The translations under genes and the position numbers were made by a program. A stretch of DNA of 64,000 bases from Squalus acanthias (Eukaryota), in assembly GCA_030390025.1 (NCBI GenBank), contig CM059432.1, positions 12,958,001-13,022,000 of the forward strand, read 5' to 3'. The number at the start of each line of letters is the position of its first letter. Within the stretch, counting starts at the first letter, position 1. The notes under the pieces are model-generated. The model did not search any database. It was not told where the DNA came from and saw only the letters and a list, made by a program, of their open reading frames with translations. Below, in pieces: positions 34,141-63,041 of this stretch.

Positions 34141-35862
34141 TCATGTCCAAATTCCTGCCCGCTCCCCGTAACCCTTAATTCCCTTTACTTCTAGGAAACT
34201 GTCTATTTCTGTTTTAAATTTATGTAATGATGTAGCTTCTACAGCTTTTTGGGGCAGCATATTCCATGGACCTACCACCCTCTGAGTGAAGTAGTTCCTT
34301 CTCATCTCAGTTTTGAAAGAGCAGCCCCTTATTCTAAGACTATGCCCCCTAGTTCTAGTTTCACCCATCATCGGGAACATCCTCCCCGCATCCACCCGAT
34401 CCAACCCCTTCACAATCTTATATGTTTCAATAAGATCACCTCTCATTCTTCTGAACTCCAATGAGTAGAGTCCCAATCTACCCAACCTCTCCTCATATGT
34501 CCATCCCCTCATCCCCGGGATTAACTGAGTGAACCTTCTTTGTACTGACTCGAGAGCAGGTATGTCTTTTCTTAAGTATGGACACCAAAACTGTATGCAG
34601 TATTCCAGGTGCGGTCTCACCAATACCTTGTACAACTGAAGCAATACCTCCCTATTTTTATATTCTATCCCCTTAGCAATGAAAGCCAACATTCCATTGG
34701 CCTTCTTAATCACTTGCTGCACCTGCATACTAACCTTTTGAGTTTTGTGCACCAGGACCCCCAGATCCCGTTGTACTTCAGTACTTTCCAGTTTCTTGCC
34801 ATTTAGATAATAACTTGCTCTTCTATTTTTCCTGCCAAAGTGCATAACCTCACACTTTCCAGTATTGTATTCCATCTGCCAAATCTCTGCCCACTTACTT
34901 AGCCTGTGTATGTCCCCTTGCAGATTTTTTATGTCCTCCTCACTCACTACTTTCCCTCCCATCTTAGTATCATCTGCAAACTTTGATATGTTACACTCGG
35001 TCCCCTCCTCCAAATCGTTAATATAGATTGTAAAGAGTTGGGGACCCAGCACTGACCCCTGCGGAACACCACTAGTTACTGATTGCCAGTCTGAGAATGA
35101 ACCATTTATCCCAACTCTCTGCCTTCTGTTAGATAGCCAATCCTCTATCCATGCCAGAATATTACCCCCAATCCCGTGATTTTTTATCTTAAGCAATAAT
35201 CTTTTGTGTGGCACCTTGTCAAATGCCTTTTGGAAGTCTAAATACACCACATCCACTGGTTCCCCTTTATCCACCCTGTGTGTTACTTCCTCAAAGAACT
35301 CCAGCAAATTTGTCAAACATGACTTCCCCTTCATAAAACCATGCTGACTTTGTCCTATTAAATTATGATTATCCAAATGTCCCGTTAGTGTCTCCTTAAT
35401 AATGGACTCCAAAATTTTACCTACCACAGATGTTAGGCTAACCGGTCTATAGTTTCCAGCCTTCTGTCTACTGCCCTTTTTAAATAAGGGTGTTACATTA
35501 GCAGTTTTCCAGTCTGCCGGGATCTTTGCTGAGTCCAGGGAGTTTTGGAAAATTATTACCAATGCATCCAAGATCCCTACCGCCACTTCCCTCAAGACCC
35601 TAGGATGTAAGCCATCAGGTCCAGGTGATTTATCCGCCTTGAGTCCCATTATTTTACCGAGTACCACTTCCTTAGTGATTTTGATCGTGTTTAGCTCCTC
35701 CCCCCCTTTAGCCCCCTGTTTGTCCAGTGTTGGGATATTCTTAGTGTCCTCTACTGTAAAGACTGATACAAAATATTCATTCAGTGTATTTGCCATCTCC
35801 ATATTTCCCACCATTAATTTCCCGGTCTCATCCTCTAAGGGACCAACATTTACTTTAGCCAC
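34141..35862 (-). pseudogene. CR1-C ORF2 RT and C-terminal domain, 573 aa uninterrupted
   Basis: Intact YLDFQKAFD, GVPQGS and KFADD; an upstream in-frame TGA and the 5' truncation make it non-autonomous. Confidence 0.88.
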
Positions 35863-36563
35863 CCTTTTTCTTTTTATATAACTATAAAAACTCTTACTAT
35901 CCGTTTTTATATTTTTTGCTCATTTACTTTCATAATCTATCTTCCCTTTCTTAATCAATCTTTTTGTTATTTTTTGCTGTCTTTTAAAGTTTTCCCAATC
36001 CTCTATCCTCCCACTAGATTTGGCTACCTTATAAGTCCTTGTTTTTAGTCGAATACTATCCTTAATTTCTTTACTTAGCCACGGATGACTGTCTTTTCTT
36101 TTACACCCTTTTCTTCTCAGTGGAATATATATTTTTTGGAAGTTGTAAAATAACTCCTTAAATGTACACCACTGATCATGTATCGTCTTACCCTTTAATC
36201 TATTTTCCCAACCACTCTACTAAATTCCGCTCGCATACCTTCATAGTCTCCTTTATTCAAGCTTAGCACGCTTGTTTGAGATCCAACCTTCTCACCCTCT
36301 AATTGAATATGGAATTCAACCATGTTATGGTCACTCATTCCAAGGGGATCCTTAACTAGGACATTATTAATTAATCCTGACTCAATACACAGGACCAGGT
36401 CCAAGGTTGCTTGCCCCCTTGTAGGATCAGTTACATACTGCTCAAGAAAACCATCCCTAATACACTCAATAAACTCTTCCTCAAGGCTGCCCTGCCCAAT
36501 TTGATTTGTCCAATTAATATGATAGTTAAAATCCCCCATAATCATAGATGTTCCCTTATTACA

Positions 36564-36868
36564 GAATCACAGAATCTCCACAGTGCAGATAGAGGCCATT
36601 TCAGCCCATCGAGCCTGCACCGACACATATCCCACCCTATCCCCGTATTTAATCCCCCTAACACTAAGGGTCAATTCATCATAGCCAAATCAACCTAACC
36701 CGCACATCTTTGGACTGTGGGAGGAAACCGGAGCACCCGGAGGAAACCCACGCAGACACGGGGAGAATGTGCAAACTCCACACAGACAGTCACCCGAGGC
36801 CAGATTCGAACCCGGGTCCCTGGCGCTGTGAGGCAACAGTGCTAACCACTATGCCACTGTGTTGCCCT
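36564..36868 (-). mobile_element. HE1-like V-SINE inserted in element C
   Basis: tRNA head (GGGCAACACAGTGGCATAGTGGTTAGC, GGTTCGAATC), V-domain TGTGTGGAGTTTGCACATTCTCCCC, CR1-type tail; TSD TTACA (36559-36563, 36869-36873). Confidence 0.9.
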
Positions 36869-37033
36869 TTACAAGCCTCAACTATTTCCTGATTGATACT
36901 CCGTCCAACAGAGTTGCAACTATTCGAGGCCTATAGACTACGCCCACTAGTGTTTTTTTCCCCTTATTATTCCTTATCGCCACCCAAACTGTTTCATTAT
37001 CCTGATCTTTTGACCCAATATCATTTCTCTGTA

Positions 37034-37933
37034 TTACTTAATTTCTTTTGTTAGCCATGGTTGGATCACTTTTCCTTTTGGGTTTTTATGCCCTAGAGGA
37101 ATATATGTTTGTTGCAAATTATGCATTATTTCCTTGAATGTTAGCCATTGTATGTCCACCTTCATACCTTTTAGTGTAGTCTCCCAATCTACCATGGCCA
37201 ACTTGTCCCTCATACCCTTGTAGTTTCCATTGTTTAGATTGAAGACCTTAGTTTCAGATTGGACTACATCACTCTCAAACTTAATGTAAAATTCAATCAT
37301 ATTATGATCAGTTGTCCCTAAAGGCCCCTTTACCACAAGATTATTGATTATCCCTTTCTCATTACACAGTACCAGATCCAGAATCACCTGTTCCCTGGTT
37401 GGTTCCTCCACATACTGATCCAGGAAACCATCTCGCATGCATTCCAAGAATTCGTCCTCCACACCATTAGTGGTAATTTGATTTGCCCAGTCAATATGTA
37501 GATTAAAATCCCCCATGATTACCGTATTGCCCTTGTTACATGCACTTCTAATTAATTGATTGATACTGTGCCCTACATTACCACTACTGTTTGGTGGCCT
37601 ATACACAACTCCCACCAATGTTTTCCGCCCTTTGCTGTTTCTTAGCTCCACCCAAACTGATTCCAGTTCTACATCACGATCTGTCGAGCCAAGATCTTTT
37701 ATCTCTACCGTACCGATCTCATCCCTTATTAACAGCGCTACGCCACCTCCTTTTCCTTTTTGTCTGTCCTTCCTAAATGTTGAGTACCCTGGAACATTCA
37801 GTTCCCAGCTTTGGTTACCCTGCAACCATGTCTCTCTAATGGCAATTACATCATACCCATTTACTTCTATTAGTGCCATTAATTCATCCACCTTGTTGCG
37901 AATGCTACGTGCATTTAGATAAAGTGCCTTCAA
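37034..37933 (-). pseudogene. CR1-B ORF2 apurinic-like endonuclease domain
   Basis: YLNARSIRNK, ETW, GGGV, VYRPP, MGDFN, LDLVL, TDH. Confidence 0.9.
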
Positions 37934-38089
37934 CTTTGCCTGTTTAATATTTTCTGCACTTTGACCCTCTTTACTGTTGGCCTTTGTTTCTGCTCCCTAC
38001 TAGTTTTGCTGACTACTTTTCTAACTTGCACTTCCAGCTTTGTTTCTCTCCATTCTGGGTTCCACTTAGGTTCCCAGCCCCCTGACAAA

Positions 38090-39040
38090 CTAGTTTAAAT
38101 CCTTCCCAACAGCACTAGCAAAGCCCCCTGTGAGGATCTTGGTCCCGGTTCTGCCGAGGTGTAATTCGTCCAGCTTGTACAGGTCCCACCTTCCCCAGAA
38201 TCGGTTCCAATGCCTCAGGAATTTAAATCCCTCCCTCCTACACCATCTCTCCAGCCATGCATTCATCTGGTCTATTCTCCTATTTCTGCTCTCGCTAGCA
38301 TGTGGCACTGGGAGTAATCCTGAGATTACTACCTTTGAGGTCCTGCTTTTTAATTTATTTCCTAGCTCCCTATATTCTGCTTGCAGGGCCTCATCCCTCT
38401 TTCTACCTATGTCGTTGGTACCGATATGGACCACGACCTCTGGCTGTTCACCCTCCCCCTTCAGAATGTCCTGCAGTCGCTCAGTGACATCCTTGACCCT
38501 GGCACCAGGGAGGCAACATACCGTCCTGGAGTCACGTCTTCGGCCACAGAAACGTCTATCTGTTCCCCTTATGATAGAATCCCCTATCACTATTGCTCTC
38601 CCACTCTTTTTCCTCCCCTCCTGTGCAGCTGAGCCACTCGTAGTGTCACAAACTTGGCTCTTGCTGCATTCCCCTGAGAAACCATCTCCCCCAGCAGTAT
38701 CCAAAACAGAAAATCTGTTGGAGAGGGAGATGGAGAAAGGGGACTCCTGCACTACCTTCCTAGTTCTTTTACTCTGTCTGGCAGGTCACCCATTCCCTTT
38801 CTGCCTGTGCACTCTTTACCTGCGGTGTGACCACGTCGTTAAACGTGCTATCCACATAGATCTCAGCCTCGCGGATGCTCCACAGTGACTCCAGCTGCCG
38901 CTCCAGATCCGAAATGCGGATTTCGAGTAGCTGCAGCTGGAGACACTTCCTGCACATGTGTTCGCCCTGGACACCGAAGTGTCCCTGACTTCCCACATAG
39001 CACAGGAGGGGCACTCCACGCTGCCGAGCTGTCCTGCCAT
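38090..39040 (-). pseudogene. CR1-B ORF1: zinc finger/leucine zipper plus SGNH esterase (frameshifted)
   Basis: CPSC...CRKC, LLEIRISDLERQLESL, IGDSIIRG, CLPGA, HIGTND, DELHL. Confidence 0.88.
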
Positions 39041-46346: not shown

Positions 46347-46591
46347 TCATCCTAAGTTGGCAGTTTCCTTCAGGTCTTCCATCTCCATCTGCATTTGCAG
46401 CCAGATCCTCCAGGTGCTGCAGGCAACATTTACCTTGTTCACTAATTGTTGCCAGGCATTGTGTCTGACTCCTTTGTGGAGAAGATGCCTTGATGTGCCA
46501 AACAAGGCTGTCCTCCTTTTCCTCACTTCAGCCACATGGCCTCAAGGACTTCTTCCATAAATTTGGGCGTACACTGTCTAGAAGCCTTCAT
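46347..46591 (-). mobile_element. Degraded Harbinger Myb/SANT-like DNA-binding ORF (NAIF1-like domain)
   Basis: Across one frameshift: MKASRQCTPKFMEEVLEA/VAEVRKRRTALFG...AWQQLVNKVNVACSTWRIWLQ...DLK; TIR-like aacctggccc at about 51470 on the far side of the Gypsy element. Confidence 0.55.
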
Positions 46592-46834
46592 TTCACTGCA
46601 GTCCTAATCTTCAGTAATCAAAACTTCCTGTTTAGTCCAGAACGCAGCCCTTTAAAAGACTGCAGCAGCACACGTGCTTAGACAGCCCACTTTGCAAGCA
46701 AGTGCTCACCATTAATTAGTAATTCAGTCCAAACCTGAAAATCTGTTGGGAACTGCCGCGTGGTACAAGTCACCAGAGCCCCCTCGAGCATTCTGTTCTT
46801 CCCAATAATATGTATCGCAAAGAATGTTTTACAC

Positions 46835-47081
46835 TGTTGAGGCTGCCGCGAAACACGAATTAAGACTGAATCCATGTGTGTAAAACAAAGGCTTTTTAAT
46901 ACCACTGCATGGTCCAAAATGGCTGAACAGACTGCTCCCAGAATTCTCTGGAAAAATCCTGAGGCCCCGCCCACTCCTTTTCTCCTGCCTTAAAGGCAAG
47001 GTGCCTTAAAGGCAAGGTGCTCGATATATTGTCCACGGACGGAAAAGTGGATAATGCCCGTTTAGGTGGCGATCCGCCACA
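46835..47081 (-). repeat. 3' LTR (247 bp)
   Basis: Matches 50956-51203 with 4 transitions and 1 indel; preceded on the minus strand by PPT GGGGGGGAG (47085-47093). Confidence 0.95.
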
Positions 47082-47225
47082 CAGCTCCCCCCCAGAATCC
47101 GCTTAGGAGGTGTGGACGAGACAGTGCGGCGGTCTGATGGGCCGGCCGGAGCGGCTCTTGTAGGACGCCGGTGGACATGGAACGGCCGGGCGTGGAGCAG
47201 CCGGGTGAACCGGCTTGAGGGCAGG

Positions 47226-50200
47226 TCAGCCACGTGGCGGTGGACAAGCTACAGGGACCTGCTCACCGGGCTCCGACTGTGCTGGCTTGAGTCGGTCAAC
47301 CGACACTTTTTCGGTCCTGTCGCCCACTTGCAGGGTCAAAAATTTGTCCCCAGCCTGTAGCACCTTGTAGGGCCCGTCGTATGGGGGTTGAAGGGGTCCG
47401 CGGTGGGCGTCGTGCCAGACGAAAATGAACCGTGCCTGGTGCAGGCTTAGTGGGACGTGTGAGGTGGATTCGCCGTGTTGGGCAATGGGCACCGGGGCGA
47501 ACTGCAGTGCCGGTGAGGCGAAGTCGTGGCGCTGCTGGTCGGCTGACCAGGGTGTCGTGGCAGTGGGAGGAACTCGCCGGGTACGCGCAGCGGCTGACCG
47601 TACACGAGCTCTGCTGCCGATGCGTGGAGGTCTTCTTTAACCGCGGTGCGCAGGCCGAGGAGGACCCATGGAAGTCGGTCGGTCCAGGCGCCGTCCTGGA
47701 GGCTGGCTCGAAGAGATGCCTTCAAGGATCTGTGGAACCGCTCACACAGTCCGTTGGCTTGGGGGTGGTATGCTGTGGTGCGGTGAATGGTCACCCCGAG
47801 ATTGCGTGCGACGGCGGTCCAGAGTTCAGAGGTAAATTGCGGACCTCTGTCCGACGTCATGTCGGAGGGGACGCCGAACCGTGCGACCCAGGTGCTGACG
47901 AAGGCTCTGGCGATGTCAGCGGTGGTGGTAGAGGTCAGTGGAATTGCCTCGGGCCAGCGCGTGGTGCGGTCAACGATCGTCAGCAAGTGCGTGTGGCCTT
48001 GCGACGGCGGCAGGGGCCCGACGATGTCCACGTGGATGTGGTCGAATCTCCGTGAGGGGACGGTAAACTCCTCGAGGGGTGCTTTCGTGTGTTGCTGTAC
48101 CTTGGCCCGTTGGCAGGCTAGGCAGGAGTTGGCCCAAGTACGCACATCCTTGCGAAGGCCACGCCAGACAAAGCGGTTGGCTACCAATTTGATGGATGCG
48201 CGGGCGCCGGGGTGGGAGAGGTTGTGGAGAATGTCGAATACCCGGCGGCGCCAGGACGCTGGGACGACGGGCCGAGGTTGACATAGGGATATGTCGCACT
48301 TGACCGTGACTGAGGTCGGGCCACAGGCGACGTCGGCCAGGCGTAGCCCTGGTAGGTTGGTAGGTGCGGAGAGCAGATCAGGGTCAGTGATCTGGTCTGC
48401 TGCGAGTTGAGCGTAGTCGACTGCCAGGTGTGCGGCGTGGATGGTGGGGCGGGAGAGGCAGTCGGCTACCACATTGTCTTGGCCGGAGACGTGTTGGATG
48501 TCCGTGGTGAACTCAGACACTGCCGCGAGCTGGCGCTGCTGCCTGGCAGACCAGGGGTCAGTTGTCTTTGCCATTGCGAATGTCAGGGGCTTGTGGTCGA
48601 CAAACGCAGTGAAGGGGTGGCCCTCAAGCAAAAACCGAAAATGGCGGACCGCCAGGAACAGCGCGAGGAGCTCGCGGTCGAAGGTGCTGTACTTGACCTC
48701 CGGGGGGCGTAGTTGGCGGCTGAAGAAGGCAAGTGGTTGCCAGGCGCCGTCGACCCACTGCTCATACACGGCGCCGACCACGTGGTCGGAGGCGTCCGTG
48801 GTGAGCGCTACCCTGGCATTGGGCCGTGGGTGCGCGAGCAGGGTGGCGTTGGCGAGCGCGGTCTTGGTGGAGTCGAAGGCGGCGGACGCGTCTGCCGCCC
48901 ATTCGACCGCCATCTTGCCGCTCCTGCCCCAGAGGGCTTCATACAGGGGCCTCATGAGGGACGCCGCTTTGGGGATGAAGCGGTTATAGAAATTCACCAT
49001 CCCGAGGAACTCCTGGAGGCCTTTGATGGTGGTGGGGCGGGGAAATTGTTGGACGGCCTGCACCTCGGTGGGCAGGGGAATGGCCCCAGCATGGGTGATG
49101 TGGTGGCCGAGGAAGTCGATCTTGTCCAGGCCGAACTGGCATTTGGCTGGGCTGAGGATGAGCCCGTGGTCGCTGAGGCGCCCGAACAGGATGCGAAGGT
49201 GTTCGAGGTGTTCCTGCTTGGAGGAACTGGCTACCAGGATGTCGTCCAGGTAGACGAACAGGAACTTCAGGTCCCGAAGAACCGAGTCCATGAGCCGTTG
49301 GAATGCCGGGGCCGCATTTTTGAGGCCGAAGGGCATCCGCAGGAACTCGAACAGGCCGAAGGGGGTGATTACGGCCGTCTTGGGGACGTCCGCGGGGTGG
49401 ACGGGGTCTTGGTGGTAGCCGCGCACCAGGTTGACCTTGGAAAAGACTGAGCGGCCGGCCAGTCTAGCCGAGAAGTCCTGAATGTGCGGCACGGGGTACT
49501 GATCAGGGGTGGTGGCATCGTTGAGGCGGCGGTAATCCCCGCAGGCGCGCCAACCCCCGCCTGGTTTGGGGGCGATGTGGATTGGGGAGGCCCAGGGACT
49601 GTTGGAGCGGCGGATAATGCCGAGCTGTTCCATGGTGGCAAATTCGGTCCGCGCGATCTCCAGTTTGGCCGGGTCCAGCCTGCGGGCGTGGGCGTACACT
49701 GGGGGGCCTGTGGTGGGGATGAAGTGTTCCACCCCGTGTTTGGCAGCCTCCGCGGAGAAGGTCGGATTGGTAAGGGCCGGGAATTCGGCCAGGAGTGCCG
49801 AGTCGTCATCCGTGGCCCGGGCGTGGCACTGTGACGCCATGTCGGCGGGTTGACAGGGGGCCATGGCGCCCAGGATGGGGGACATGGTGTTCATGTCCAC
49901 GAGGCAGTGACGAGGGATGTCTACCAGTAGGCCGTGGGCGCACAGGAAATCTGCGCCGATGAGAGGGGAGAGCACCTTGGCAGTGATGAACTCCCATCGG
50001 TAGCGGCGACCAGCGAGGTCGAGGGTGACTGTCCGGGTGCCGTACGTCCGGATTTCCGAGCCGTTAGCAGCAGCCAGCGCCGGTCCTCGTTCGCCCTTTT
50101 GGATGTCGAGGGAGGAGGCCGGGATGATGCTGTGCTGAGCTCCAGTGTCGCACAGGAACCGGCGGCCGGTTTTGTCATCCGTGACGTACAGCAGGGAGCC

Positions 50201-50330
50201 CGCGTGGCCCACGGCCATCGCGGGGGCTGGTATGGGGGCGGACTTGAAAGAGCAGGGAGGTGTGCACCGTTGTGCCCTGGCGCCGAACCGTGCGTGGTAG
50301 TAACAGTGGCCCAGGTTAGTGGGGCACGAA
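47226..50330 (-). pseudogene. pol: Gypsy pol (Gag CHCC knuckle, protease, RT, RNase H, integrase, GPY/F module)
   Basis: CYYHARFGARAQRCTPPC; FLCDTGA; YLDD; TDAS/RELLA/DHKPL; HNLSH..CLAC; HVDIVGP..SDRG..ERFH; frameshift near 47560 before PLQPPYDGPYKV. Confidence 0.9.
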
Positions 50331-50915
50331 GGACCCCGTGGGGCTGGTGGCTGGTCCTTGTGGCCGCGTGGTGGCCGGTGAGGGGCGCGCCCAGGCATTG
50401 GCTGCCAGGTCCGGAGTGACGTCGCGGCTGGAGTGAGCGGACAGCAGCTTGTCGGCCTCATCGGCCAGGGCTTCCAGGTTCGTGAGGCCTGACGCCACGA
50501 TCGCTGGGCGGATGCTGAGAGGGAGCTGGCGGATGAACAGCGTGCGGAAGAGGGATCCGGGTGGGCTCTCGTCGGTGAGGGAGAGCATGTGGGAGAGGAG
50601 GTCTGACGGTGAGGCATCACCGAGGCCTGGAAGGTCGAGGAGGTGGCAGTTTCGCTGATATGCCGAGGCCGTAAATTTTTTAAGGTGCGCTGCCTTAAGA
50701 CGTGCATACTTGCCTTCCTCTGGTGGGTTCTGCAGCGCTGTCCAAATCTTCGAAACTGTGGCGCTACCGAGTGATGTGACGAGGTAGTCGTACTGCGGCC
50801 CATCTTTGGTGATGTTTCGCAGCCGGAAGCGGGATTCAGCTTGGAGAAACCAGGCTTCAGGCTGGTTTTCCCAAAACTCCGGCAGTTTCACGGAAACTGC
50901 GTTCGTGTCCGCCAT
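50316..50915 (-). CDS. gag: Gypsy gag N-terminal ORF (199 aa)
   Basis: ATG in gcaATGG context; VKLPEFWENQPEAWFLQAESRF motif typical of CsRn1/Kabuki-type Gag. Confidence 0.85.
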   Translation of the reverse strand: MADTNAVSVKLPEFWENQPEAWFLQAESRFRLRNITKDGPQYDYLVTSLGSATVSKIWTALQNPPEEGKYARLKAAHLKKFTASAYQRNCHLLDLPGLGDASPSDLLSHMLSLTDESPPGSLFRTLFIRQLPLSIRPAIVASGLTNLEALADEADKLLSAHSSRDVTPDLAANAWARPSPATTRPQGPATSPTGSFVPH

Positions 50916-50940
50916 TGCAGTGCTCAGAATACGTTCTGAG

Positions 50941-50954
50941 CGTCGGGGTCACCA
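50941..50954 (-). promoter_or_regulatory. Primer-binding site complementary to the 3' end of tRNA-Trp
   Basis: TGGTGACCCCGACG lies 1 nt downstream of the 5' LTR. Confidence 0.9.
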
Positions 50955-50955
50955 A

Positions 50956-51203
50956 TGTTGAGGCTGCCGCGAAAACACGAATTAAGACTGAATCCATGTG
51001 TGTGAAACAAAGGCTTTTTAATACCACTGCATGGTCCAAAATGGCTGAACAGACTGCTCCCAGAATTCTCTGGAAAAACCCTGAGGCCCCGCCCACTCCT
51101 TTTCTCCTGCCTTAAAGGCAAGGTGCCTTAAAGGCAAGATGCTCGATATATTGTCCACGGACGGAAAAGTGGATAATGCCCGTTTAGGTGGCGATCCACC
51201 ACA
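50956..51203 (-). repeat. 5' LTR (248 bp)
   Basis: Near-identical to 46835-47081. Confidence 0.95.
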
Positions 51204-51492
51204 ACACCAAATAAACAGCTAACAGATCTCTCCTGACAGAGCTCACAGTACTCGACAGCAATGTTTCCGCTAAGCTGCACGGTCGCACTAATGAGAAAGG
51301 TCCCACGCAGGTCGCTCACCAGCTTTTACATTGGAAATACCGTGCATGCACAGAAATTTAAAGGGACCGCACATTAAAAGAAACAGGCCGCGCAGAACAA
51401 AGCGCAGCTCACAGGGAGCATTGCTCCAGAGTTTGGAGTATGGTTGTGAAGTTAGCTGCTAACCTGGCCCGACCCTTTATAAGCCAATGCTG

Positions 51493-51927
51493 GAAAGAAA
51501 GACTTGCATTTACAACCTTTCACAACCTCAGGACGTCCCAAAGCGCTTTACAGCCATTGAAGTACTTTTTGAAGTGTAGTCACCGTTGTAATGTAGGAAA
51601 CACAGCAGCCAATTTGCCCACAAACAATGTGATAATGACCAGAAAATCTGTTTTTTAATGGTGTTGATTGAGGGATAAATATTGGCCAGGACGCCGGGGA
51701 TAATTCTGCTGCTCTTCTTCGAAATAGTGGCATGGGATCTTTTATGTACACCTGAGAGGGAGCAGGCAGGGTCTCAGTTTAACATCTCATTCAAAAGACA
51801 GCATCTCCGACAGTGCAGCACTCCCTCAGCACTGCACTGGAGTGTCAGCCTAGATTTTTGTGCTCAAGTCTCTGGAGTGGGATTTGAACCCACAACCTTC
51901 TGACTCAGAGGCAAACTGAGCCACTGC
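51493..51927 (-). mobile_element. Deu-SINE
   Basis: Tail, partly deleted core, B-box and A-box in reverse complement. Confidence 0.85.
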
Positions 51928-53509
51928 TGGAGTACTACCTCTGGGAAGTTGTCTAAACAGACAAGTCTAGGTAACTGCAATTGTTTGTAAACTTGTAGAC
52001 TCAATTAAAACTTCGAGCACCAGGACGAGACAGGCTTTATTTATCTTCTTTTTAAAAAAAGATTGTTTTGCGTCTACGACAAAGTTTAACACTTTGAAGC
52101 ACGAATGTAACATCTGGAGTGTGACTGGCATGTGCTAGACACAAACGTTTATATATAATAGATTGGAATAAATTTATAGAGTCACTTCTCCGCTAATAGC
52201 AATTATTACAGTAGACAGGAATGAGCCTGCTAAGATTTTGCACTAAATATTGCAAATAGTTTGGCAACAGGCTGTTCATAACAATGCATTGCAATACAAC
52301 GTATCCCTGATTGGGGGAGGGGGGGGGGGGGTTAAAACCAATATGTGAAATAGATATTAATTTACTTAAGTTACTTTGGCCCTGGGCTAATGGCACACAG
52401 TTGATCTGATTTTGAACCTATGACAGTTTATGAACCCATATCACTTACAGCCTTCAAGGAGTGTTTTAGTCGACACACTCTCTATGGGTACAGAGTAACA
52501 ATATCACTCAGCTGGATCAGTGACCAGGAATGTAATCCTATCAGTGTACGGTATCAAAAGTGGCATTTTCTATTCATTCTCCCAACCCTTCAAAGTCCAA
52601 GCTGTTTTCTAGTAGAAATATGAAGATATGTAATGATGACTGGGAAGTTTTTCTTTACCGTGCCAAATCAAGAGGAACAAACTCGATTACCAATGGTAGC
52701 ATTGCGCTTTCTGGAACTGACCGAACCAAATATAAAATGACAGCCTTTGAATCTGCATCCATGCCTCTGGGGCATTGGAAATGAAAGCCTTTCTTTTTAA
52801 ACAGAGTGAAGTAACCTCGGTAGATATGAGCGCTGATAGTTATTTAGTTATAATGTAAAAATCTGCAGTTATTGCAGTTGCCCAGCTTTAAGAAATAATG
52901 GAAACATCTGGAATTTCCAGCGAGGGGAAACATTGCATTTGGATTCAATAAAGTAATTTAAATCTTCTAGATTATTCCGTTCATTATCTGTCTTTCGCAT
53001 GTCATGGAACAAAAGAAACCAATACCACATTGTGTCGACTTACAGATGATTTTATTTATGGGAGGGGAGTGGGTACTGAGAGCTTTCGTGCAACTTTATC
53101 CCAACATCAGGTAAAGTGCTGCTCAGTGCCTGACCTGCATTTCACTAATAACATCTGCTTGATGTCTTCATACTTCTCTTGAGTTAAATGCAGCCACTCA
53201 ATGTCCACTGAATTGTAATGTTTTATTCAGCACTGGTGTGGGCATCTGCAGCGCTCTTAACATCTTACAGCTGCTCAAACCACAAGTGGACCTCCCTTGG
53301 TGTTGCACAAGGTAAGTTAAAGCATACACTTTGTTACAAGGACGGGAGCACAATGGGGGTCGAATTCCCCAATCGTCCACCACAACTTTGTCGGAAGATC
53401 GCCACAGAAACCCCAGAGGAAGGGCATTCTCTGTAGTTTCTCCTGGATCTTCTGACAAAGTTCTGGCAGAGGATGGGGAACCCTGCACCCAACCCCCGCC
53501 GCCCCCCCC

Positions 53510-54065
53510 CTGGATATTCAACCCGGTTGTGCGTCACTATAACTCCCGGGCGTTATCTTGATGCTGCCCGTCAGCTGCCTGCCTGAAACGGATGGGAAGC
53601 AGCAGCCAGACAGCAGGTTGGAATAGAATTCCGTGCGGCAGGAACGCACTGGCCGACACCAAAGGAACGGTTGCCAGCAACAAGGTAAGTTGGTGGAGGG
53701 GAGGGGATTTTTTGGGGGAGGAGGAGGAGGGGGGAGCCCGAGGCAGGGGAGCCCTAAACTCTGCTTGGAGGAGCAAGGGGAGCGCTCCTGCTCCTCCTGG
53801 CCCCACAAGGAAAGTTTAAAAAAACAAGTGGAAAAAAAAACCTTACCTCTTCAGGCTTCTTCTGGCCCTGGATCTCCTCCCCACTATCTCCACCTGGGCG
53901 GGAAAGCTACAATGGCTTCCCCGCTCAGGCCAGAGTTAAGTTTGCAGTTGGGGGCGCTCGATGACGTTATCAGACCCCGATATGCAAGGTGAAAGAAGGA
54001 CACCGCTGGATTCAGGCAGGCCTCCGAATTTCAACTGCCCGCCCACCCGATTTCGGCCGCCTCAG
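53510..54065. mobile_element. GC-rich MITE-like element related to 8533-9221
   Basis: CpG-rich; similar CCCGCC subterminal motifs and central AGGTAAGT / CTTACCT; termini unclear. Confidence 0.4.
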
Positions 54066-54230
54066 CATTTTACGATTGTTTCGGATCTAAAAAAGTGAGA
54101 CATCTGGTGTGTGATGTCTGGTGTTTGATATTTGCATTTCGTAGATGTACTGTTGTTAATATTTGTATATATTAATCGGTACATGGAAATTAGACTACTT
54201 CCCTCACAGGGAATACCTGCAGTAGCCTTA

Positions 54231-54546
54231 AAGAAAGACCTGCATTTTCATAGCGCCTTTCACAACCTCAGGACGTCTCAAAGCGCTTTACAGCCAATGA
54301 AGTACTTTTGAAGTGTAGTCACTGTTGTAATGTAGGAAACACGGCAGCCAATTTGCGCACAGCAAGCTCCCGCAAACAGCAATGTGATAATGGCCAGATA
54401 ATCTTGTTTCAGTGATGTTGGTTGAGGGATTAATATTGGCCAGGACAATAGTGCCATGGAATCTTTTACATCCACCTGAGAGGGCAGACGGGGCCTCAAT
54501 TTAACATCTCCTCTGAAAGACGGCACCTCTGACAGTGCAGCACTCC
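54231..54546 (-). mobile_element. Deu-SINE, 5'-truncated
   Basis: Core and tail. Confidence 0.85.
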
Positions 54547-55057
54547 AGGCCAGGTGAGCAACCGTGCTCCAGCTCCAAGACTACCAGTGAGCAACACCAA
54601 AGGAGACCAGCTCTTTTTCTTTCTCTCTCTCTCTGTATATACTGTTTGTGTGAGTGTATATACAGATAAGCTTCTCCATATACTGACACAGGCATGATGG
54701 ACCTACTTCTGTGCGCTGTCATTCTATGATATACACACAGCTTTTGCAGATAGTCTTCTCATATAAGAATGTTTAAGAATGATTTAACTCTCAAATTTAA
54801 ATGTCATATTCAGGCTTTGCCTTTATTTTGATGTCTCCTCCACAGTGTTAGTGCTGACCACCAATTCAGTAGTATGTTGGGCTGGGAGTAGTGTGATTAA
54901 AGAACCAACATCCTCACCACTTTCAATGTCAACCTCCCCTTGCTCAAAAAATATCCTTCTGACTTTCTGTTTTCCGTATAAAGCAGCAGAATCATATTTT
55001 AAAGTATTGAGGTATCCTAAACTTATAACTTTTCAACAGTTATGTTTCTGGTTGGGC

Positions 55058-55660
55058 TCTGGAATTCCCTCCCTTAAACCTCTCCACCTCTCTCTCTCTC
55101 CTCCTTTAGAACATAAGAATTAGGAGCAGGAGTAGGCCATACGGCCCCTCGAGCCTGCTCCACATTCAATAAGATCATGGCTGATCTTCCACCTCAACTC
55201 CACCTTCCAACACTATCCCCATATCCCTGGATGCCCCTAGAGTCCAAAAATCTATCTATCTCAGCCTTGAATATACTCAAAGACTCAGCAGCCACAGCCC
55301 TCTGGGCCAGAGAATTCCAGAGATTCACAACCCTCAGTGAAGAAATTCCTCCTCATCTCAGTCTTAAAAGGCCAACCCCTTATCCTGAAAATATGCCCCC
55401 TAGTTCTAGACACTCCAGCCAGGGGAAACAATCTCTCAGTATCTATCCTGTCAATCCCCCTCAGAATCTTAAATGTTTAAATTATATGTTCAATATGTTT
55501 TAAGATGCTCCTTAAAACCTATCTCTTTCACCAAGCTTTTGGTCTCCTGTCCTAATATCTCCTTTTATGTGGCTCGGTGTCAAATTTCATCTGATAACGC
55601 TCCTGTGAAGTGCCTTGGGATGTTTTACTATGATGAAGGTGCTATATAAATGCAAATTGT
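55058..55660. mobile_element. L2 3' end (plus strand) interrupted by a CR1 3' fragment (minus strand, about 55108-55480)
   Basis: TCTGGAATTCCCTCCC...CTCCTTTA|...|TTTAAGATGCTCCTTAAAACC; CR1 tail AGAACATAAGAA. Confidence 0.75.
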
Positions 55661-55684
55661 ATTTGGAAACTAGGGTAAAAAAAA

Positions 55685-56197
55685 ATTATTAGTTCCTGGG
55701 ATGTGGACGTTGCTGGCAAGGCCAGCATTTATTGCCCATCCCTAATTGCCCTTGAGAAGGTGGTGGTGAGCTGCCTTCTTGAACTGCTGCAGTCCATGTG
55801 GTGAAGGTACTCCCACAGTGCTGTTAGGGAGTGAGTTCCAGGATTTTGACCCAGCGACGATGAAGGAACAGTGATATATTTCACAGTCAGGATGGGGTGT
55901 AACTTGGAGGGGAACTTGGAGGTGGTGGTGTTCCCATGTGCTTGCTGCCCTTGTCCTTCTAGGTGGTAGAGATCATGGGTTTGGGAGGTGCTGTCGAAGA
56001 AGCCGGTGGTGGAGGGTGTGAATGTTTAAGGTGGTGGATGGGGGGCCAATCAAGCGGGCTGCTTTGTCCTGGATGGTGTCGAGCTTCTTGAGTGTTGTTG
56101 GAGCTGCACTCATCCAGGCAAGTGGAGAGTATTCCATCACACTCCTTACTTGTGCCTTGTAGATGGTGGAAAGTCTTTGGGGAGTCGGGAGGTGAGA
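55685..56197 (-). mobile_element. Zenon-like CR1 3' fragment
   Basis: IYKAQVRSVMEYSPLAW. Confidence 0.85.
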
Positions 56198-57244
56198 CAA
56201 TTTAATGTGAAATATCAAGTTCTGAGGCTCGATACTCAGTTTTGGCAAAGTCTTGACACAAGTTGAATCTTCAGATCATGATTCAGAGGAAAGCACTCCG
56301 TTAGAGACAAAAGCTAAATCATTCAAAGTGAGAAAAGCCAATTGAATTAAAACAGACGGTGGTTGAAGTTAATTTAAGACAAGCTCTGCTATACCAGTGA
56401 GAAAAGCTGTCGGGTAGTTTAACCCCCTGCCTTTTCACAGCCCCGATCTATTTCATACTTTCGAGCTCTTGAAATTCCATCCATTCGAACGCCTGGAGAC
56501 AAATTTTTAAACTAAAACAAAAACATGTCAGGAGTTGTTACATTTGAAAGAAAACCGAGGAACCGCACATATCCAAACAAGGGTTTCCATAATTCGGGTT
56601 AAGTGGGGAGAGGGGGTTGGGCGCTAAAGTTAATTGCAGCCGGGTTAAAACAGTCTCATTGAGCCCCAGTCTCGGTTGGCAGTCGTGTTACTTTTTACAA
56701 AGTAATCCGAGAGTGACCCGAGCGTGTCCAGGAAACCAGCACTTGGCATCGTTTGATAGAATTATTGTCACTATTTAACGTGGCTGGGGGAAACTGGACA
56801 ACCTGGAATCGTGTAGGAAAACAAAAATCCCTGAAATAGAGTCCACCTGGAACGTGTAGTCTCGCCTTGTGCTCGCCGCTAACTGTTATTACACTTGGGG
56901 ATTTCCAAACATTCGATAGCAGTAATCATTTTTTTTTAACAGCAGATCCTAAAAACAACAATCTCCTAATCCCTATGTGTCTTTCTGCAAATACAGGGAG
57001 CCTCGACAGCCTTTGTCTGTGTGTGTGTGTTTTTTCTCTCAGTATTATTAGTATCTTATTTGTGTAACTGACTTTTAGGGGTGTGCAAAACTGGAGTTTA
57101 ATCCGTCAGTATTAACATGGGTGATATTTGCAGTCTCAGTTTACACTGCACTGCGGATTGCTGTGAAGTTCGAACTGCCCTTATAAGATGCTGCAGTTCA
57201 ATGTGTCATTTTCCAACAATTCAATCCCCCGTTTTAAAGGAATA

Positions 57245-57433
57245 GAAAGAAAGACTTGCATTTATATAGTGCCTTACACAACCTCAGGATGTCCCAAAGC
57301 GCTTTACAGCCAATGAAGTACTTATTGGAGTGTAGTCACTGTTGTAATGTGGGAAACGCGGCCGCCAATTTGCGCACTGCAAGCTCCCACAAACAGCAAT
57401 GTGGTAATGACCAGATAATCTGTTTTAGTGATG
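57245..57433 (-). mobile_element. Deu-SINE 3' half
   Basis: Core and tail. Confidence 0.8.
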
Positions 57434-57574
57434 TCGATTTTGATAACATCGTCCCATCTTTAGAATGACCCATTAGGTATTAGTCTGGCACACAAGTAGA
57501 ATAGGGCAACACCAAGCTTACCCCACAGAAAGGAAGTGCGTCAGACTTCTACATGCCAGCTATAACCTTATCAT

Positions 57575-58120
57575 TATGTACAGTTTTGGTCTCCTTACCT
57601 AAGGAAGGATATACTTGCCATAGAGGGAGTGCAACGAAGGTTCACCAGACTGATTCCTGGGATGGGGGGATTGTCCTGTGAGGAGAGATTGAGTGGACTA
57701 GGGCTATATTCTCTAGAGTTTAGAAGGGGATCTCATTGAAACATACAAAATTCTTACCGGGTTTGACAGGATAGATGCAGGGAGGATGTTTTCCCCTGGC
57801 TGGGGAGTCTAGAACCAGGGGGTCACAGTCTCAGAATAAGGGGTTGGCCATTTAGGACTGAGATGAGGAGAAATTTCTTCACTGAGAGGGTGGTGAATCT
57901 TTGGAATTCTCTCCCCAGAGGGCTGTGGAGGCCCAGTCATTGAGTATATTCAAGACAGAGATCGATAGATTTTTGAATATTAAGGGAATCAAGGGATATG
58001 GGGATAGTGCAGGAAAGTGGAGATGAGGTAGAAGATCAGCCATGATCTTATTGAATGGCGGAGCAGGCTCGAGGGACCAAATGGCCTACTCCTGCTCCTA
58101 TTTCTTATGTATGTTCTTAT
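57575..58120 (+). mobile_element. CR1 3' fragment
   Basis: VQFWSPYLRKDILAIEGVQRRFTRLIPG; tail. Confidence 0.88.
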
Positions 58121-58307
58121 TCCTTCTTTACTTTCCACTGGTGATATAGAGTACTTTCATCGGCATTTAATTCTGTTCTCACTACACGCCCCGTGTCAAA
58201 ACTCCAAGGCCTTGGTACCTGGGCTACAGTTTGGAAACGGGTGGGTTGCACCCCAATATTTTACATCCATATATATATATAGCACCTTATAATATAGCAA
58301 AACTCAC

Positions 58308-58700
58308 CCGTTGTAAGTTTTCACTCTCAGCTGTGCTGCTGGGAAGAGGCCCAAGGAACCACTCACAGACAACAGAAGAACATTAAGCAACACGAGTCCA
58401 TCTCCCCTGGTTGCACAGGGGGAGGGGTCGGTCGGCCCGACTGCCTGCCTCTCTTTCGCGCCCGGGTGTCCCTGGAGATGGAGCATGCTTGAGGGTTTCC
58501 GTGACTGGAGTGCTTCATCAGCCCGCAAAACAGAATTTTGATTTAATTTGTTAAGTTGCCTTTAAATTTTGTTTTAAGTTACAGTTTTATGGGTTGTGCC
58601 CCTTTAAGAAGGGGGCACATGCTGGCTCCTAATTGGTGATGACATCAGTCATCAATTAAGTTGTAACCAATAAGAAGTTGCACAGAGGGGTCAGCGCCAA
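58308..58700 (-). promoter_or_regulatory. Candidate first exon (ending at donor GG|gtgagt, 58308) and proximal promoter of the minus-strand host gene
   Basis: Unique sequence with local CpG enrichment; CCAAT boxes in both orientations (about 58632 and 58667); CRE-like TGACATCA (about 58640); strong splice donor. Confidence 0.4.
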
Positions 58701-59029
58701 GTGTAGTCTTCAGGTGAAGCGGGTTTCGAGGGTAGCGGATAATTAGGCCAGGGTGTGCACTCGTAATTCATACCCCATTTTAAAGTCATACCTTCTGACC
58801 TTATTTTTATATTTCCATTATAAATATTATATATGTCCACGTTTGGAATGGAAAATGCCTATGTAAACTTGACACTCTGCAATTACAGCCTCCTGCAGTG
58901 CTACTGCAGCGCCTCCATTGATTGGAGGATGTAACTACAGGTCGCAAGTTTGCATTGAGAGTTTCCATTATAAATGTGGACCTAGGAATGTAGAATGGGA
59001 AAACTGACAGCAAGTGTGCGCAAACATAA

Positions 59030-59557
59030 TATTTGGGCACCACACTTTAGGAAGGATGTCAAGGTCTTGGAGCGGGTGCAGGGGAGATTTACTGGAATGG
59101 TACCAGGGATGAGGGACTTCAGTTGCATGGCGAGACTGGAGAAGCTGCGATTGTTCTCCTTAGAGCAGAGAAGGTTAAAGGGAGATTTAATAGTGGCGTT
59201 CAAAATCATGAAGGGTTTTGATAGAGTAAATAAGGAGAAACTGTTTCCAGTGGCAAAAGGGTCATTAACCAGAGGACACAGAGGTAATTGGCAAAAGAGC
59301 CAGAGGTGAGATGAGGATCGTTTTTTTTACGCAGTGAGTTGTTGTGATCAGGAATGCGCTGCCTGAAAGGGCGGTGGAAGCAGATTCAATAGTAACTTTC
59401 GAAAGGGAATTGGATAAATACTTGAAGGAAATAAAATTCCAGGGCTATGGGGAAAGAGCAGGGGAGTGGGATTAATTGGATAGCTCTTTCAAAGAGCCAG
59501 CACAGGCACGATGGGCCGAATGGCCTCCTTCTGTGCTGTATGATTCTATGATTCTAT
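59030..59557 (+). mobile_element. CR1 3' fragment
   Basis: WAPHFRKDVKVLERVQGRFTGMVPG; (CTATGATT)n tail. Confidence 0.88.
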
Positions 59558-60124
59558 ATAGCTGTTGTTCCAACAACATGTTCCAACAAGTCTGTCCGTG
59601 TTGATTGATCTCAGTCCCACTTACTAAATCCCTGCACGCCTCTCTCCAGAAACACAGTTGCCTCTGTTCACTTCAGTGGCCTTTCCTGGTAACTTGTTCC
59701 ACAATTCTATCACCCTTTGTGAAAATCGTTTCTGTCTGATCTTTTTCTTCTCCTCGCTTCCCAATTTTTAACTTGTGTCCCTTAATGTTTGAAGAAGGAA
59801 AAACTGGAGGAAAAGTCAACACCAGATTGCTCTCGCTCGCCACCGAGCAACACTGATAGAGGACTTGGAACCAGGACTCCCACCTGACTTCTAGCTCAAC
59901 AATTCATTGGTTACAAAGCACTTTGGGAGGTCCTGAGGTCGTGAAAGACATTATATAAATGCAAGCCTTTATTTTTCTCAATACTCTATGGTTATAGGAG
60001 ACAATTCATGCTTGCTGTGTGAAAAATCATGGCATCATAGAATCATAGACATTTACGACACAGGAGGAGGCCATTCGGCCCACCGTGTCTGTGCTGGCCA
60101 AAAAAAAGAGCTATCCAGCCTAAT

Positions 60125-60484
60125 CTGTCTGTGTGGAGTTTGCACATTCTCCCCGTGTCTGCGTGGGTTTCCTCCGGGTGCTCCGGTTTCCTCCCACAGT
60201 CCAAAAATGTGTGGGTTAGGTTGATTTGGCTATGATAAATTGACCCTTAGTGTTAGGGGGGATTAAATATGTGGGGTTATGGGGATAGGATGGGATATGT
60301 TAGGGGGAATTAAATACGTGGGGTTACGGGGGTAGGGTGGGATATGTGTACTGTGGGGATTAAAGCAGGGACAGGGTACTGGATTTGGATGATCAGCCAT
60401 GATCGTATTGAATGGCGGAGCAGGCTCGACGGGCCGAATGGCCTACTCCTGCTCCTAGATTCTATGTTTCTATGTTTCTATGTA
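60125..60484 (+). mobile_element. 5'-truncated HE1-like V-SINE fused to a CR1 3' UTR, inserted in a minus-strand CR1 tail (60034-60560)
   Basis: V-domain TGTGTGGAGTTTGCACATTCTCCCC; the tail matches the CR1 at 345-695; host sequence rejoins at CCTAATC|CCACTTTCC. Confidence 0.8.
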
Positions 60485-61228
60485 TCCCACTTTCCAGCTC
60501 TTGGTCCATAGCCTTGTAGGTTACAGCACTTCTCAAGTGCATATCCAAGTACTTTTTAAACTCTCTCATACATTTTGATCTGTCTTTCCATTTCTTCCCC
60601 ACATGATCACTTGTTTCCACATATATTCCAACTGAGTCCTAGCATCTGAATGAGCAAGTGTGGATCACACTGCAGACAACATCTGATACCCATCTGCCCC
60701 TTATTCACACTTCAGTGCCTTAAAAATACTTTTCTAAATTGATGTGCTTAAACATAAGAATGGCTTTTTGTTATCCTCTTAAAATAAAGTGCGTAATGAA
60801 GTGAATGTTGAACAATAATGTCAATTGGTCATCAATCACCTCTACTGCCTCACACGCTTCTGAAGTTTAATATTACCATGAAATATGCATCTGAGTAGTG
60901 TGTGGTGCAGCAAATATAACATTAATAACATCTGCTATGATAGATACCACATCTACTTCAGCATAAACTTTCCTCGGCATATAACATGGCTGCTCGGAAT
61001 TGATTTTCTTTTAAGCAAACTAGTTCCCCAGAATAGGGACTGCTCAAAAAATTTCCCAAACTTGAATGCTGCCTCTCTAAAAAGATAAATGCATATTCTA
61101 CTAAATTGTCACATCATTCTACATGGAATAAACAGAGATACCCATACTTTTACTGTCTTTCCATCAACTTTTGTGACCATTTTAAAACTGCTAGTTTGAA
61201 GCAGGTCTGAAGCAGACATTTTGTGCAC

Positions 61229-61247
61229 AGCTCCCCCTAGTGTGACA
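61229..61247 (-). promoter_or_regulatory. Candidate CTCF-binding site
   Basis: Reverse complement TGTCACACTAGGGGGAGCT resembles the CTCF core CCAC(T/C)AG(G/A)GGGC. Confidence 0.35.
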
Positions 61248-61486
61248 TCAGGAACTTCCATCCCACCGACAGCAATAATGGGGAGTGTTATCTAATGCCC
61301 ATTCGTGAAATCACTGGAGTTGACGTGTAAGTACGTGCATAAAGCCCTCTGCATCATTTTAGGTTTATGTAACAGTTCAGTAGAATGCACATCCACTTTA
61401 ACAATAAATGCTTTGTATCACTATGATACAAGATTTGGCAGCATTAGCTTAAAGGACTAAATCCTCTTGCAAATCAGGCCTCTATT

Positions 61487-61730
61487 AACAACAACAACTT
61501 GTATTTATGTAACACCTTTTAACGTAGTAAAACCATCCCGAGGCACTTCACAGGAGTATCATGAGCCACCGAGCCACATAAAGAGATATGAGGGCAGGTG
61601 ACCAAAAGCTTGGTCAAAGATGTAGGTTTTAAGGAGCGAATTAAAGGAGGAGGGAGAGGTAGAGAGGTGGAGAGCTTTAGGGAGGGAATTCCAGAGCTTA
61701 GGACCTAGGCAGCTGAAAGCACGGCCCCTA
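61487..61730 (-). mobile_element. L2 3' fragment
   Basis: (TTG)n tail; homologous to 44087-44310. Confidence 0.8.
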
Positions 61731-61799
61731 TCAAAACATCAAAAAATAACTTGCATTTTTAGAGCACTTTTAACATAATAAAAATCCCAAGGTGCCTCA

Positions 61800-61970
61800 C
61801 ATTTTTTTTAAATTATTTCATGGAGTGTGGGCGTCCCTGGCAAGGCCAGCATTTATTGCCCATCCCTAATTGCCCTTGAGAAGGTGGGGATGAGCCGCCT
61901 TCTTGAACCGCTGCAGTCCGTGTGGTGAAGGTACTCCCACAGTGCTGTTGGGTAGGGAGTTCCAGGATTT
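61800..61970 (-). mobile_element. Zenon-like LINE 3' end
   Basis: Same 3' sequence as 11575. Confidence 0.8.
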
Positions 61971-62791
61971 AACTTAATAGTTAATAGTTCATCCATCCAC
62001 TGAGCCAGGAATTAAACTTTTAAGAAGAAACATGGAACAAGAATAGTTTCATATTCTGTTAACTATGTACTCCTGGTTACACCATCTTTTTCAAAAATGA
62101 TGAAGCGGTTAAAGTGAAACTTAAATATATTTTTAGCTACTTTTGCACCACTTTGAGCTGATTCACATAATGCACCACACGCCACATATGTTCCTCTGCA
62201 GCACTGCAGTTTGCAGAGATTAAGCCATTTTGATCATAGCCAACAAAATTTACTGTTGCAGCACTCATGAATAATGTGGCCTATTCCACTCCGTTATTTT
62301 CTGTACTCCATGCAGTCTCTAGCATGTATCCTTTATCTGTGCCAGCAGTGTTTGATATGTCCTAGAACTAGAACATAAAAATAATGATCACATATTCCAG
62401 TGCGACATGAAATTTATTAGATGGTGGGATGACAACATGACCAGAACTATTTCTCCCTTCCAGCAGCTGTAAATCTGGCATACCAAGATGTTCCACAGCT
62501 GTATTACTGGAGGTGTGGAGCTACACTGGTGCGAATGGGTTTTCGTTGAATAATTATTGGCATGTTTCATAACTTGCATTTTGTTCTTCTATACAAATCG
62601 TGGGGCTAACCATTCATACCTGCTTCTTGGCATTTTAATGAAGGAAACAGTATTTTAGGCTGGCAGTCTGTTCTTCTGCCAAAGAGGATTTTCAATATAG
62701 TGATTTACATTTAGAGAGAGGTGAGAAGACACCCAACAGAGCATAATATAAAATTGCAAATTATTTACTTTTAAATGGAAGTAAACATTTA

Positions 62792-63041
62792 ACCACCACC
62801 TCCAAGTTCCCCTCCAATTCACACACCATCCTGACTTGGAAGTATATCACCGTTCCTTCATCGTCGCTGGGTCAAAATCCTGGAATTCCCTCCCTAACAG
62901 CACTGTGGGAGTACCTTCACCACACGAACTGCAGCGGTTCAAGAAGGTGGCTCACCACCACCTTCTCAAGGGCAGTTAGGGATGGGCAATAAATGCTGGC
63001 CTTGCCAGCGACGTCCACATCCCATGAACGAAGAAAAAAAA
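62792..63041 (+). mobile_element. Zenon-like LINE 3' end
   Basis: Same 3' sequence with an A-rich tail. Confidence 0.8.

What the first reader, a model, noticed from the sequence alone, without database searches (positions are those of the whole stretch)
46835..51203. Young, GC-rich CsRn1-clade Gypsy retrotransposon in a shark-like genome: horizontal-transfer candidate
Seen: a complete LTR-PBS-gag-pol-PPT-LTR element with an ACAC TSD. The LTRs differ by 4 transitions and 1 indel in about 247 bp. The interior is far more GC- and CpG-rich than its flanks. The PBS is TGGTGACCCCGACG and the Gag knuckle is C-x2-H-x9-C-x3-C. Established: a tRNA-Trp PBS plus the CHCC knuckle characterise the CsRn1 lineage, first described from trematodes and insects (CsRn1, Boudicca, Kabuki). 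Inference: compositional foreignness and youth suggest a recent invasion, possibly from an aquatic invertebrate or parasite.
Basis: partly seen in the sequence, partly recalled or inferred. Interest (0 to 1): 0.7.

Follow-up and report, generated by a model that had tools for sequence, protein, structure and literature searches.

The report
Dead fish-type CsRn1 retrotransposon in shark
This is a broken copy of a well-known kind of jumping gene (CsRn1 group) in a likely shark genome; its closest named relatives are in bony fishes, not parasites, so it likely reflects an old exchange or shared ancestry with fishes rather than a recent invasion from an invertebrate.

Summary
The anatomy is confirmed: LTRs with 4 transitions and 1 indel, ACAC target duplication, tRNA-Trp-type primer site, CHCC knuckle, PR-RT-RH-IN, GC 0.64 against 0.43-0.45. 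The copy is broken, though: two frame breaks and a substituted RT catalytic residue. It belongs to a many-copy family, and the host looks chondrichthyan. CsRn1 is already known from teleosts, frogs and molluscs. No protein relative is closer than 73%. On RT-RH-IN it groups with teleost elements (100/99) and not with a skate CsRn1 (AU p 1e-63). Fourfold sites are near saturation against the nearest DNA relative, and those relatives are GC-rich too. At shark rates the LTR divergence means about 8-40 million years. Runs under seven other organism labels hold the family at about 98%, but together with trace shark-type repeats, so mixed DNA is the likelier cause. A recent invertebrate or parasite donor is not supported. 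An old exchange with ray-finned fishes, or shared descent, remains open.

The parts
46831..46834 (.). target site duplication ACAC, left copy
46835..47081 (-). 3' LTR, 247 bp, with a 16-bp tandem duplication at 46986
47085..47093 (-). polypurine tract just before the 3' LTR
47229..47566 (-). integrase C-terminal tail with GPY module, out of frame with the rest of pol (break near 47.57 kb, private to this copy)
47732..48265 (-). integrase: HHCC zinc domain and D,D,E core motifs
48509..48901 (-). RNase H (DAS motif at 48788-48799)
49097..49570 (-). reverse transcriptase; YLDD at 49241-49252 present, first catalytic aspartate position (motif 49415-49444) substituted
50141..50149 (-). aspartic protease DTG motif, in the same open frame as the knuckle and RT
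50252..50305 (-). CHCC Gag knuckle (C-x2-H-x9-C-x3-C)
50337..50915 (-). Gag N-terminal part (Pfam PF23055/DUF7041), out of frame with the knuckle (break near 50.33 kb, private to this copy)
50941..50954 (-). primer binding site of the CsRn1 tRNA-Trp type
   Evidence: consensus in PMC2582038 section 6
50956..51203 (-). 5' LTR, 248 bp
51204..51207 (.). target site duplication ACAC, right copy

Best explanation
This is a full-length but broken copy of a CsRn1-type Ty3/Gypsy retrotransposon whose protein groups with bony-fish elements; its family likely amplified inside a cartilaginous-fish genome millions of years ago and likely came from an old exchange with ray-finned fishes, too old to date, not from a recent invertebrate or parasite donor. 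How it works (established for the family, inferred here): an LTR-driven RNA is translated into one Gag-Pol polyprotein and packaged. It is reverse transcribed from host tRNA-Trp at the primer site and from the polypurine tract, then integrated by the DDE integrase, which leaves a 4-bp duplication. After insertion this copy decayed, mainly at CpG sites, gaining two frame breaks and a substituted RT residue, so it is predicted to be unable to move by itself. Shown: anatomy, breaks, CpG-biased decay, tree position, many copies in the best-matching run. Inferred: fused Gag-Pol in the family, age, origin. Identity as a dead CsRn1 copy about 0.95; the number given is for the origin.
For: Of 120 listed Pol hits, 16 carry a species name: 14 teleosts, 1 skate, 1 flatworm; best identity is 72%, and 73% among shorter proteins. 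In a 121-row tree the element is sister to a 51-row clade whose 17 named rows are all teleost (support 0.997). IQ-TREE gives 99 and 100/99 for element plus teleosts. A clade with the skate element is rejected (AU p 1e-63). Shark-teleost identity (68-75%, 17 rows) lies inside the teleost-teleost range (67-90%); 74 of 136 teleost pairs are less alike than the element's best match. Fourfold sites differ at 190 of 292 against the nearest DNA relative, L006, so no known relative is a recent donor. The nearest loci have GC 0.57-0.62 and GC3 0.60-0.70. Of 25 listed transitions where this copy has A or T, 20 are in CpG context (background 0.28, p 8e-8). Ray-finned fishes take part in 93.7% of 975 vertebrate transfers (PMC7070016, passages).
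Against: The position inside the teleost clade is unresolved: teleost-only support is 48, and 28% of bootstrap trees keep teleosts together. Nesting, and so direction, is not shown. An RT-only tree (264 columns) leaves the element in a polytomy that also holds invertebrate rows. Of the 51 rows in the sister clade, 34 have no host name. No other shark genome could be searched, so vertical descent was not tested directly. CpG o/e of 0.92 is above the nearest relatives' 0.49-0.68.
Confidence: 0.48

Rival explanations
1. Plain vertical descent: the lineage has been in jawed vertebrates since sharks and bony fishes split, kept conserved by selection on transposition, with a later burst in this host.
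For: The fast tree puts the element as sister to, not inside, the teleost clade. Fourfold sites are near saturation. LTR elements show the lowest Ka/Ks among vertebrate elements (PMC7070016, passage). Run X18 holds a second type about 11% diverged (122 of 1120 letters), which could be an older subfamily.
Against: Shark-teleost identity is no lower than many teleost-teleost pairs. The only other named chondrichthyan element (skate) is on a different branch. The Pol and Gag protein searches gave no chondrichthyan member of this branch, though shark repeats are poorly annotated.
Confidence: 0.27
2. One reading: a recent invasion from an aquatic invertebrate or parasite that is not yet sequenced.
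For: CpG o/e is 0.92 (higher before decay), like several more distant loci (0.9-1.2) and above the nearest ones (0.49-0.68). Contigs in seven runs differ from this copy at largely the same places, which points to a uniform family, as after one burst. An unsampled donor cannot be excluded.
Against: Named invertebrate relatives are farther (flatworm 66%) and lie on other branches. GC richness and GC-rich amino-acid use are shared with teleost relatives (GARP 0.33 against 0.31-0.34 in six named teleost rows). The likely age is 8-40 My.
Confidence: 0.15
3. Recent spread across several species: the runs labelled as other organisms carry the family in their own genomes at about 98% identity.
For: Fifteen runs outside organism A, under nine other labels plus unlabelled ones, hold 0.40-0.45 of the words. 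All 7 that I laid cover the interior at 1.7-2.1% difference.
Against: The same runs hold the flanking shark-type repeats in the same proportions as organism A (Spearman 0.97, 0.85, 0.97 over 20 flank bins in 3 runs), at 400- to 39,000-fold lower depth. Element depth tracks host-repeat depth across the 7 runs (rho 0.95, p 0.0008; second repeat rho 0.81). No long piece of unique flank is listed for them. This fits trace shark DNA in mixed libraries. Summed contig depth is a rough measure, and the labels are coded.
Confidence: 0.08
4. Assembly artefact or foreign contig joined into the window.
For: No listed contig bridges either junction; CsRn1 contigs do stray into unrelated assemblies.
Against: Exact 4-bp duplication and paired LTRs; CpG-type decay expected in a methylating host; run X1 holds both the element and unique flank pieces at about 99%, though X1 may be the source sample.
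Confidence: 0.02

Closest known systems
Teleost CsRN1 elements (Takifugu CsRN1-1/-2 in PMC11117352; medaka and stickleback families in PMC4746887)
   Same: Length 4369 bp against 4337-4552 bp; LTRs 247 bp against 174-302 bp; no env. RT-RH-IN is 72% identical to a Takifugu rubripes protein of 1069 aa, the length given for CsRN1-2 Pol (a length match only; the supplement holds no sequences).
   Different: Host is likely chondrichthyan. The knuckle is in frame with protease and RT, whereas the teleost-branch loci checked (L002, L006) have it in another frame. GC3 is 0.78 against 0.60-0.70, and CpG o/e is higher.
CsRn1 (Clonorchis), PwRn1 (Paragonimus), AgCR (Anopheles), Kabuki; Boudicca recalled
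   Same: tRNA-Trp primer site, CHCC knuckle, 4-bp duplication, GPY module, no env or chromodomain; single fused gag-pol as in CsRn1 and PwRn1 (PMC2582038 section 6).
   Different: Reference sequences could not be obtained, so distance was not measured. None appears by name among the 240 listed Pol hits.
Skate (Rhinoraja longicauda) CsRn1-like Pol XP_078264112.1
   Same: Same clade type, chondrichthyan host, 65% identity.
   Different: A different branch: sister to a cluster holding porcelain-crab proteins; one clade with the window element is rejected.

Membership tests
Ty3/Gypsy LTR retrotransposon | Paired TG..CA LTRs with target duplication, primer site and polypurine tract | tested here: met
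Ty3/Gypsy LTR retrotransposon | pol order protease-RT-RNase H-integrase | tested here: met
   Pfam RVT_1, RT_RNaseH, Integrase_H2C2 and rve in this order after DTG
CsRn1 clade | Primer site of tRNA-Trp type (TGGTGAG/CCCCGT/A) | tested here: met
   50941-50954 fits the consensus in PMC2582038 section 6. The host's own tRNA gene was not available.
CsRn1 clade | CHCC Gag knuckle C-x2-H-x9-C-x3-C | tested here: met
   50252-50305
CsRn1 clade | 4-bp target duplication; GPY/F module; no env or chromodomain | tested here: met
   ACAC; GPY motif; no env or chromodomain Pfam hit, and about 135 bp between the pol tail and the tract
CsRn1 clade | RT phylogeny with reference CsRn1, Kabuki and Boudicca | not testable with these tools
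   No reference sequence came from any tool. Indirect only: it groups with teleost elements that include a Takifugu Pol of CsRN1-2 length.
Autonomous (active) element | Unbroken Gag-Pol with intact catalytic residues | tested here: not met
   Two frame breaks and a substituted RT catalytic position
Horizontal transposon transfer (criterion of PMC7070016) | Element synonymous divergence between hosts far below that of orthologous genes | tested here: inconclusive
   Against the nearest DNA relative 190 of 292 fourfold sites differ, which gives no recent-transfer signal. That contig's host is unknown, and no host-gene comparison was possible.
Horizontal transposon transfer (criterion of PMC7070016) | Patchy distribution or nesting within donor-clade elements | tested here: inconclusive
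   Groups with teleost elements and not with the skate element, but nesting is unresolved.

The most novel reading that the evidence does not exclude
One CsRn1 family has recently swept through several marine species at once: this shark and some of the nine other labelled organisms whose runs hold it at about 98% identity. That would be a near-contemporary cross-species LTR retrotransposon invasion involving a cartilaginous fish, with partners already sequenced.
Probability: 0.08. Interest if true: 0.7.

Novelty: new member of a known kind. Interest (0 to 1): 0.22.

Why it matters
As it stands this is one more decayed Gypsy copy, in a genome where the scan already holds 283 notes that fit 'Gypsy LTR'. 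Its modest value is that chondrichthyans appear to carry at least two unrelated CsRn1 branches, one allied to teleost elements and one to crustacean elements. I found no paper holding both 'CsRn1' and 'shark' (the library lacks most subscription papers). If an old fish-shark exchange were shown, it would extend the known ray-finned-fish transfer hotspot to sharks. If the multi-species reading held, it would give a datable recent invasion.

Tried and rejected
No host genome is held, so copy number, solo LTRs, empty sites and host tRNA could not be checked. The window holds only this copy, no tRNA gene and no Rfam match in 46500-52500. A search for a host exon as a control was only an ORF listing of 52200-64000; I saw none by eye. 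The Gag search gave 2 unnamed hits at 43%. Viral contigs gave one chance primer-site match (not studied) and no Pol relative. The supplement of PMC11117352 holds profiles and a table, with no element sequences. Using GC as a donor signature was rejected, because GC spans 0.42-0.65 across 24 related loci and is high in the nearest. Missing cover of unique flanks in the seven other runs is not taken as absence. The roughly 15,000-fold summed depth in X1 is not taken as a copy number; it shows only many copies. The RT-only tree was uninformative. Earlier-finding searches by sequence, words, genome and relatives found nothing on this element.
Full report
Observation. The LTRs (46835-47081 and 50956-51203) start TG, end CA and are flanked by ACAC. 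They differ by 4 transitions and 1 indel (K2P 0.0165; Poisson range 0.004-0.041). Interior GC is 0.636 and CpG o/e 0.91, against 0.43-0.45 and about 0.40 in the rest of the window. On the minus strand the order is 5' LTR, primer site (50941-50954), Gag (PF23055), CHCC knuckle (50252-50305), protease, RT, RNase H, integrase with GPY tail, purine tract and 3' LTR.

The copy is broken. The Gag N-part is out of frame with the knuckle, and the integrase tail is out of frame with the core. Contigs of other runs differ in length at both places (3 of 4 runs each), so both breaks are this copy's own. The first catalytic aspartate position of RT is substituted, where 116 of 120 listed relatives keep it. 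Knuckle, protease and RT share one open frame, so the family likely encodes a fused Gag-Pol (inference). That is one of three arrangements already known in the clade (PMC2582038, passages and section 6). Among 39 differences I took from the tools' lists (the best-supported rows only; many more were not shown), 25 are transitions where this copy has A or T, and 20 of these are in CpG context (background 0.28; p 8e-8). That is the decay expected after insertion in a methylating genome.

Host and age. No whole genome is held. Of 10 hits looked up for a flanking CR1 LINE protein, the most identical (67%) is from Callorhinchus milii; turtle and bird hits are at 51-54%. An earlier scan note calls a nearby gene shark-type (unchecked). 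A chondrichthyan host is therefore likely. The rates and generation times quoted in PMC9826928 (passages) work out, by my division, to about 1.6e-10 to 1.1e-9 per site per year. At 2e-10 and 1e-9 the LTR divergence gives 41 and 8 million years, with a full range of 2-104. The pedigree rate of 7e-10 per generation (PMC10587355, passages) gives about 12 million generations. The copy is young by divergence but not recent in years.

Relatives. The Pol search listed 120 hits, of which 16 carry a species name: 14 teleosts, one skate and one flatworm; the best identity is 72%. Three more top clusters contain Gadus or Culter proteins. Shorter proteins reach 73%, and Gag alone gave two unnamed hits at 43%. 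Both Pol searches scored only the roughly 8000 best candidates, and shark repeats are thinly annotated, so these are not proof of absence. On 723 RT-RH-IN columns the element is sister to a 51-row clade whose 17 named rows are all teleost (121 rows, support 0.997). Smaller IQ-TREE runs of 28 and 18 of those rows give 99 and 100/99 for element plus teleosts, but leave its place inside that group open. A clade with the skate element is rejected (p 1e-63); the skate element is sister to a cluster with crab proteins. Against my reading, an RT-only tree of 33 rows does not separate the element from invertebrate rows, and 34 of the 51 sister rows have no host name. Shark-teleost identity (68-75%) lies within the teleost-teleost range (67-90%).

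Composition. Of 24 related loci with a segment over 500 bases, GC spans 0.42-0.65 and CpG o/e 0.19-1.48. The loci on the teleost branch (L006, L011, L021, L002; hosts unknown, mostly stray contigs) have GC 0.57-0.62 and GC3 0.60-0.70, against 0.635 and 0.78 here. GC richness is thus a trait of the lineage. Against L006, DNA identity is 68% over 2.3 kb and 190 of 292 fourfold sites differ, so no relative I could see is a recent donor.

Sequencing runs. Five runs of organism A hold 0.63-0.71 of the words. Fifteen others, under nine further labels or none, hold 0.40-0.45. I laid X1 and seven of the fifteen. In X1 the summed depth over the interior is about 15,000 times that of unique flank, which shows many copies but is no count. 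All seven others cover the interior at 1.7-2.1% difference, largely at shared places, so the family is uniform. They also hold the flanking shark-type repeats in the same proportions as X1 (Spearman 0.85-0.97, three runs), at 400- to 39,000-fold lower depth, and element depth follows host-repeat depth across them (rho 0.95 and 0.81). I read this as trace shark DNA in mixed libraries (inference). The labels are coded and contig depth is rough, so real carriage by other species is not excluded; it is my novel case. No listed contig bridges a junction.

Comparison with what is known. Primer site, CHCC knuckle, 4-bp duplication, GPY module and lack of env match the CsRn1 definition. CsRn1 is recorded in medaka, stickleback and pufferfish (PMC4746887, PMC11117352; passages, Table S1 rows), in a frog (PMC4131045, passage) and in molluscs (PMC6238403, passages). 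Pufferfish elements have the same size and LTR length. A tree with the reference elements could not be run. A search for 'CsRn1' with 'shark' gave 0 papers, and 'CsRn1' with 'horizontal' gave 19, seen as a listing only. Transfers involving ray-finned fishes are common (93.7% of 975 events; PMC7070016, passages). Boudicca's membership is recalled, not read.

Verdict. A real, dead copy of a many-copy CsRn1 family on the fish branch: a new member of a known kind. Origin odds: old exchange with ray-finned fishes 0.48, vertical descent 0.27, recent unsampled invertebrate or parasite donor 0.15, recent multi-species spread 0.08, artefact 0.02. Interest 0.22.

Noticed in passing
protein P0101 (skate) and P0092: The Rhinoraja CsRn1-like Pol is sister (98/99) to a protein whose 90% cluster holds Petrolisthes porcelain-crab proteins. 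This is a better lead for an invertebrate-chondrichthyan transfer than the window element.
   Followed up: partly
proteins P0050 and P0004: Stickleback Pol is 89% identical to a Pol whose cluster includes a cyprinid (Culter) protein; a likely transfer between distant teleosts.
   Followed up: no
window 47379-50454, run X18: A second type, about 11% diverged and with 10-base gaps, at depth 3-10 beside the 98% type: an older subfamily, or copies of that run's own organism. Unexplained.
   Followed up: partly
window 47900-49700, runs X8, X16, X20: Short conserved patches at depth 500-3500 with unlike loose ends show that these runs hold another, more distant family of the same clade at high copy.
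   Followed up: no
L006:1504-3678 and L011: Animal CsRn1 elements sit as stand-alone 4.3-kb scaffolds in two bacterial isolate assemblies (Thalassococcus profundi, Alcanivorax profundi), and their proteins are filed under those bacteria: database contamination.
   Followed up: partly
window 30000-39000: Long CR1-type LINE frames on the minus strand (32150-33730, 34141-35919, 37034-37996, 38090-38785) with strong C skew; one frame's most identical looked-up hit is from Callorhinchus.
   Followed up: partly
window 9879-10695: A tandem array of a roughly 33-base unit, open in two frames; looks like a minisatellite.
   Followed up: no
window 15738-16517: An open frame resembling a Penelope-type GIY-YIG endonuclease tail (recognised from memory, not searched).
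   Followed up: no
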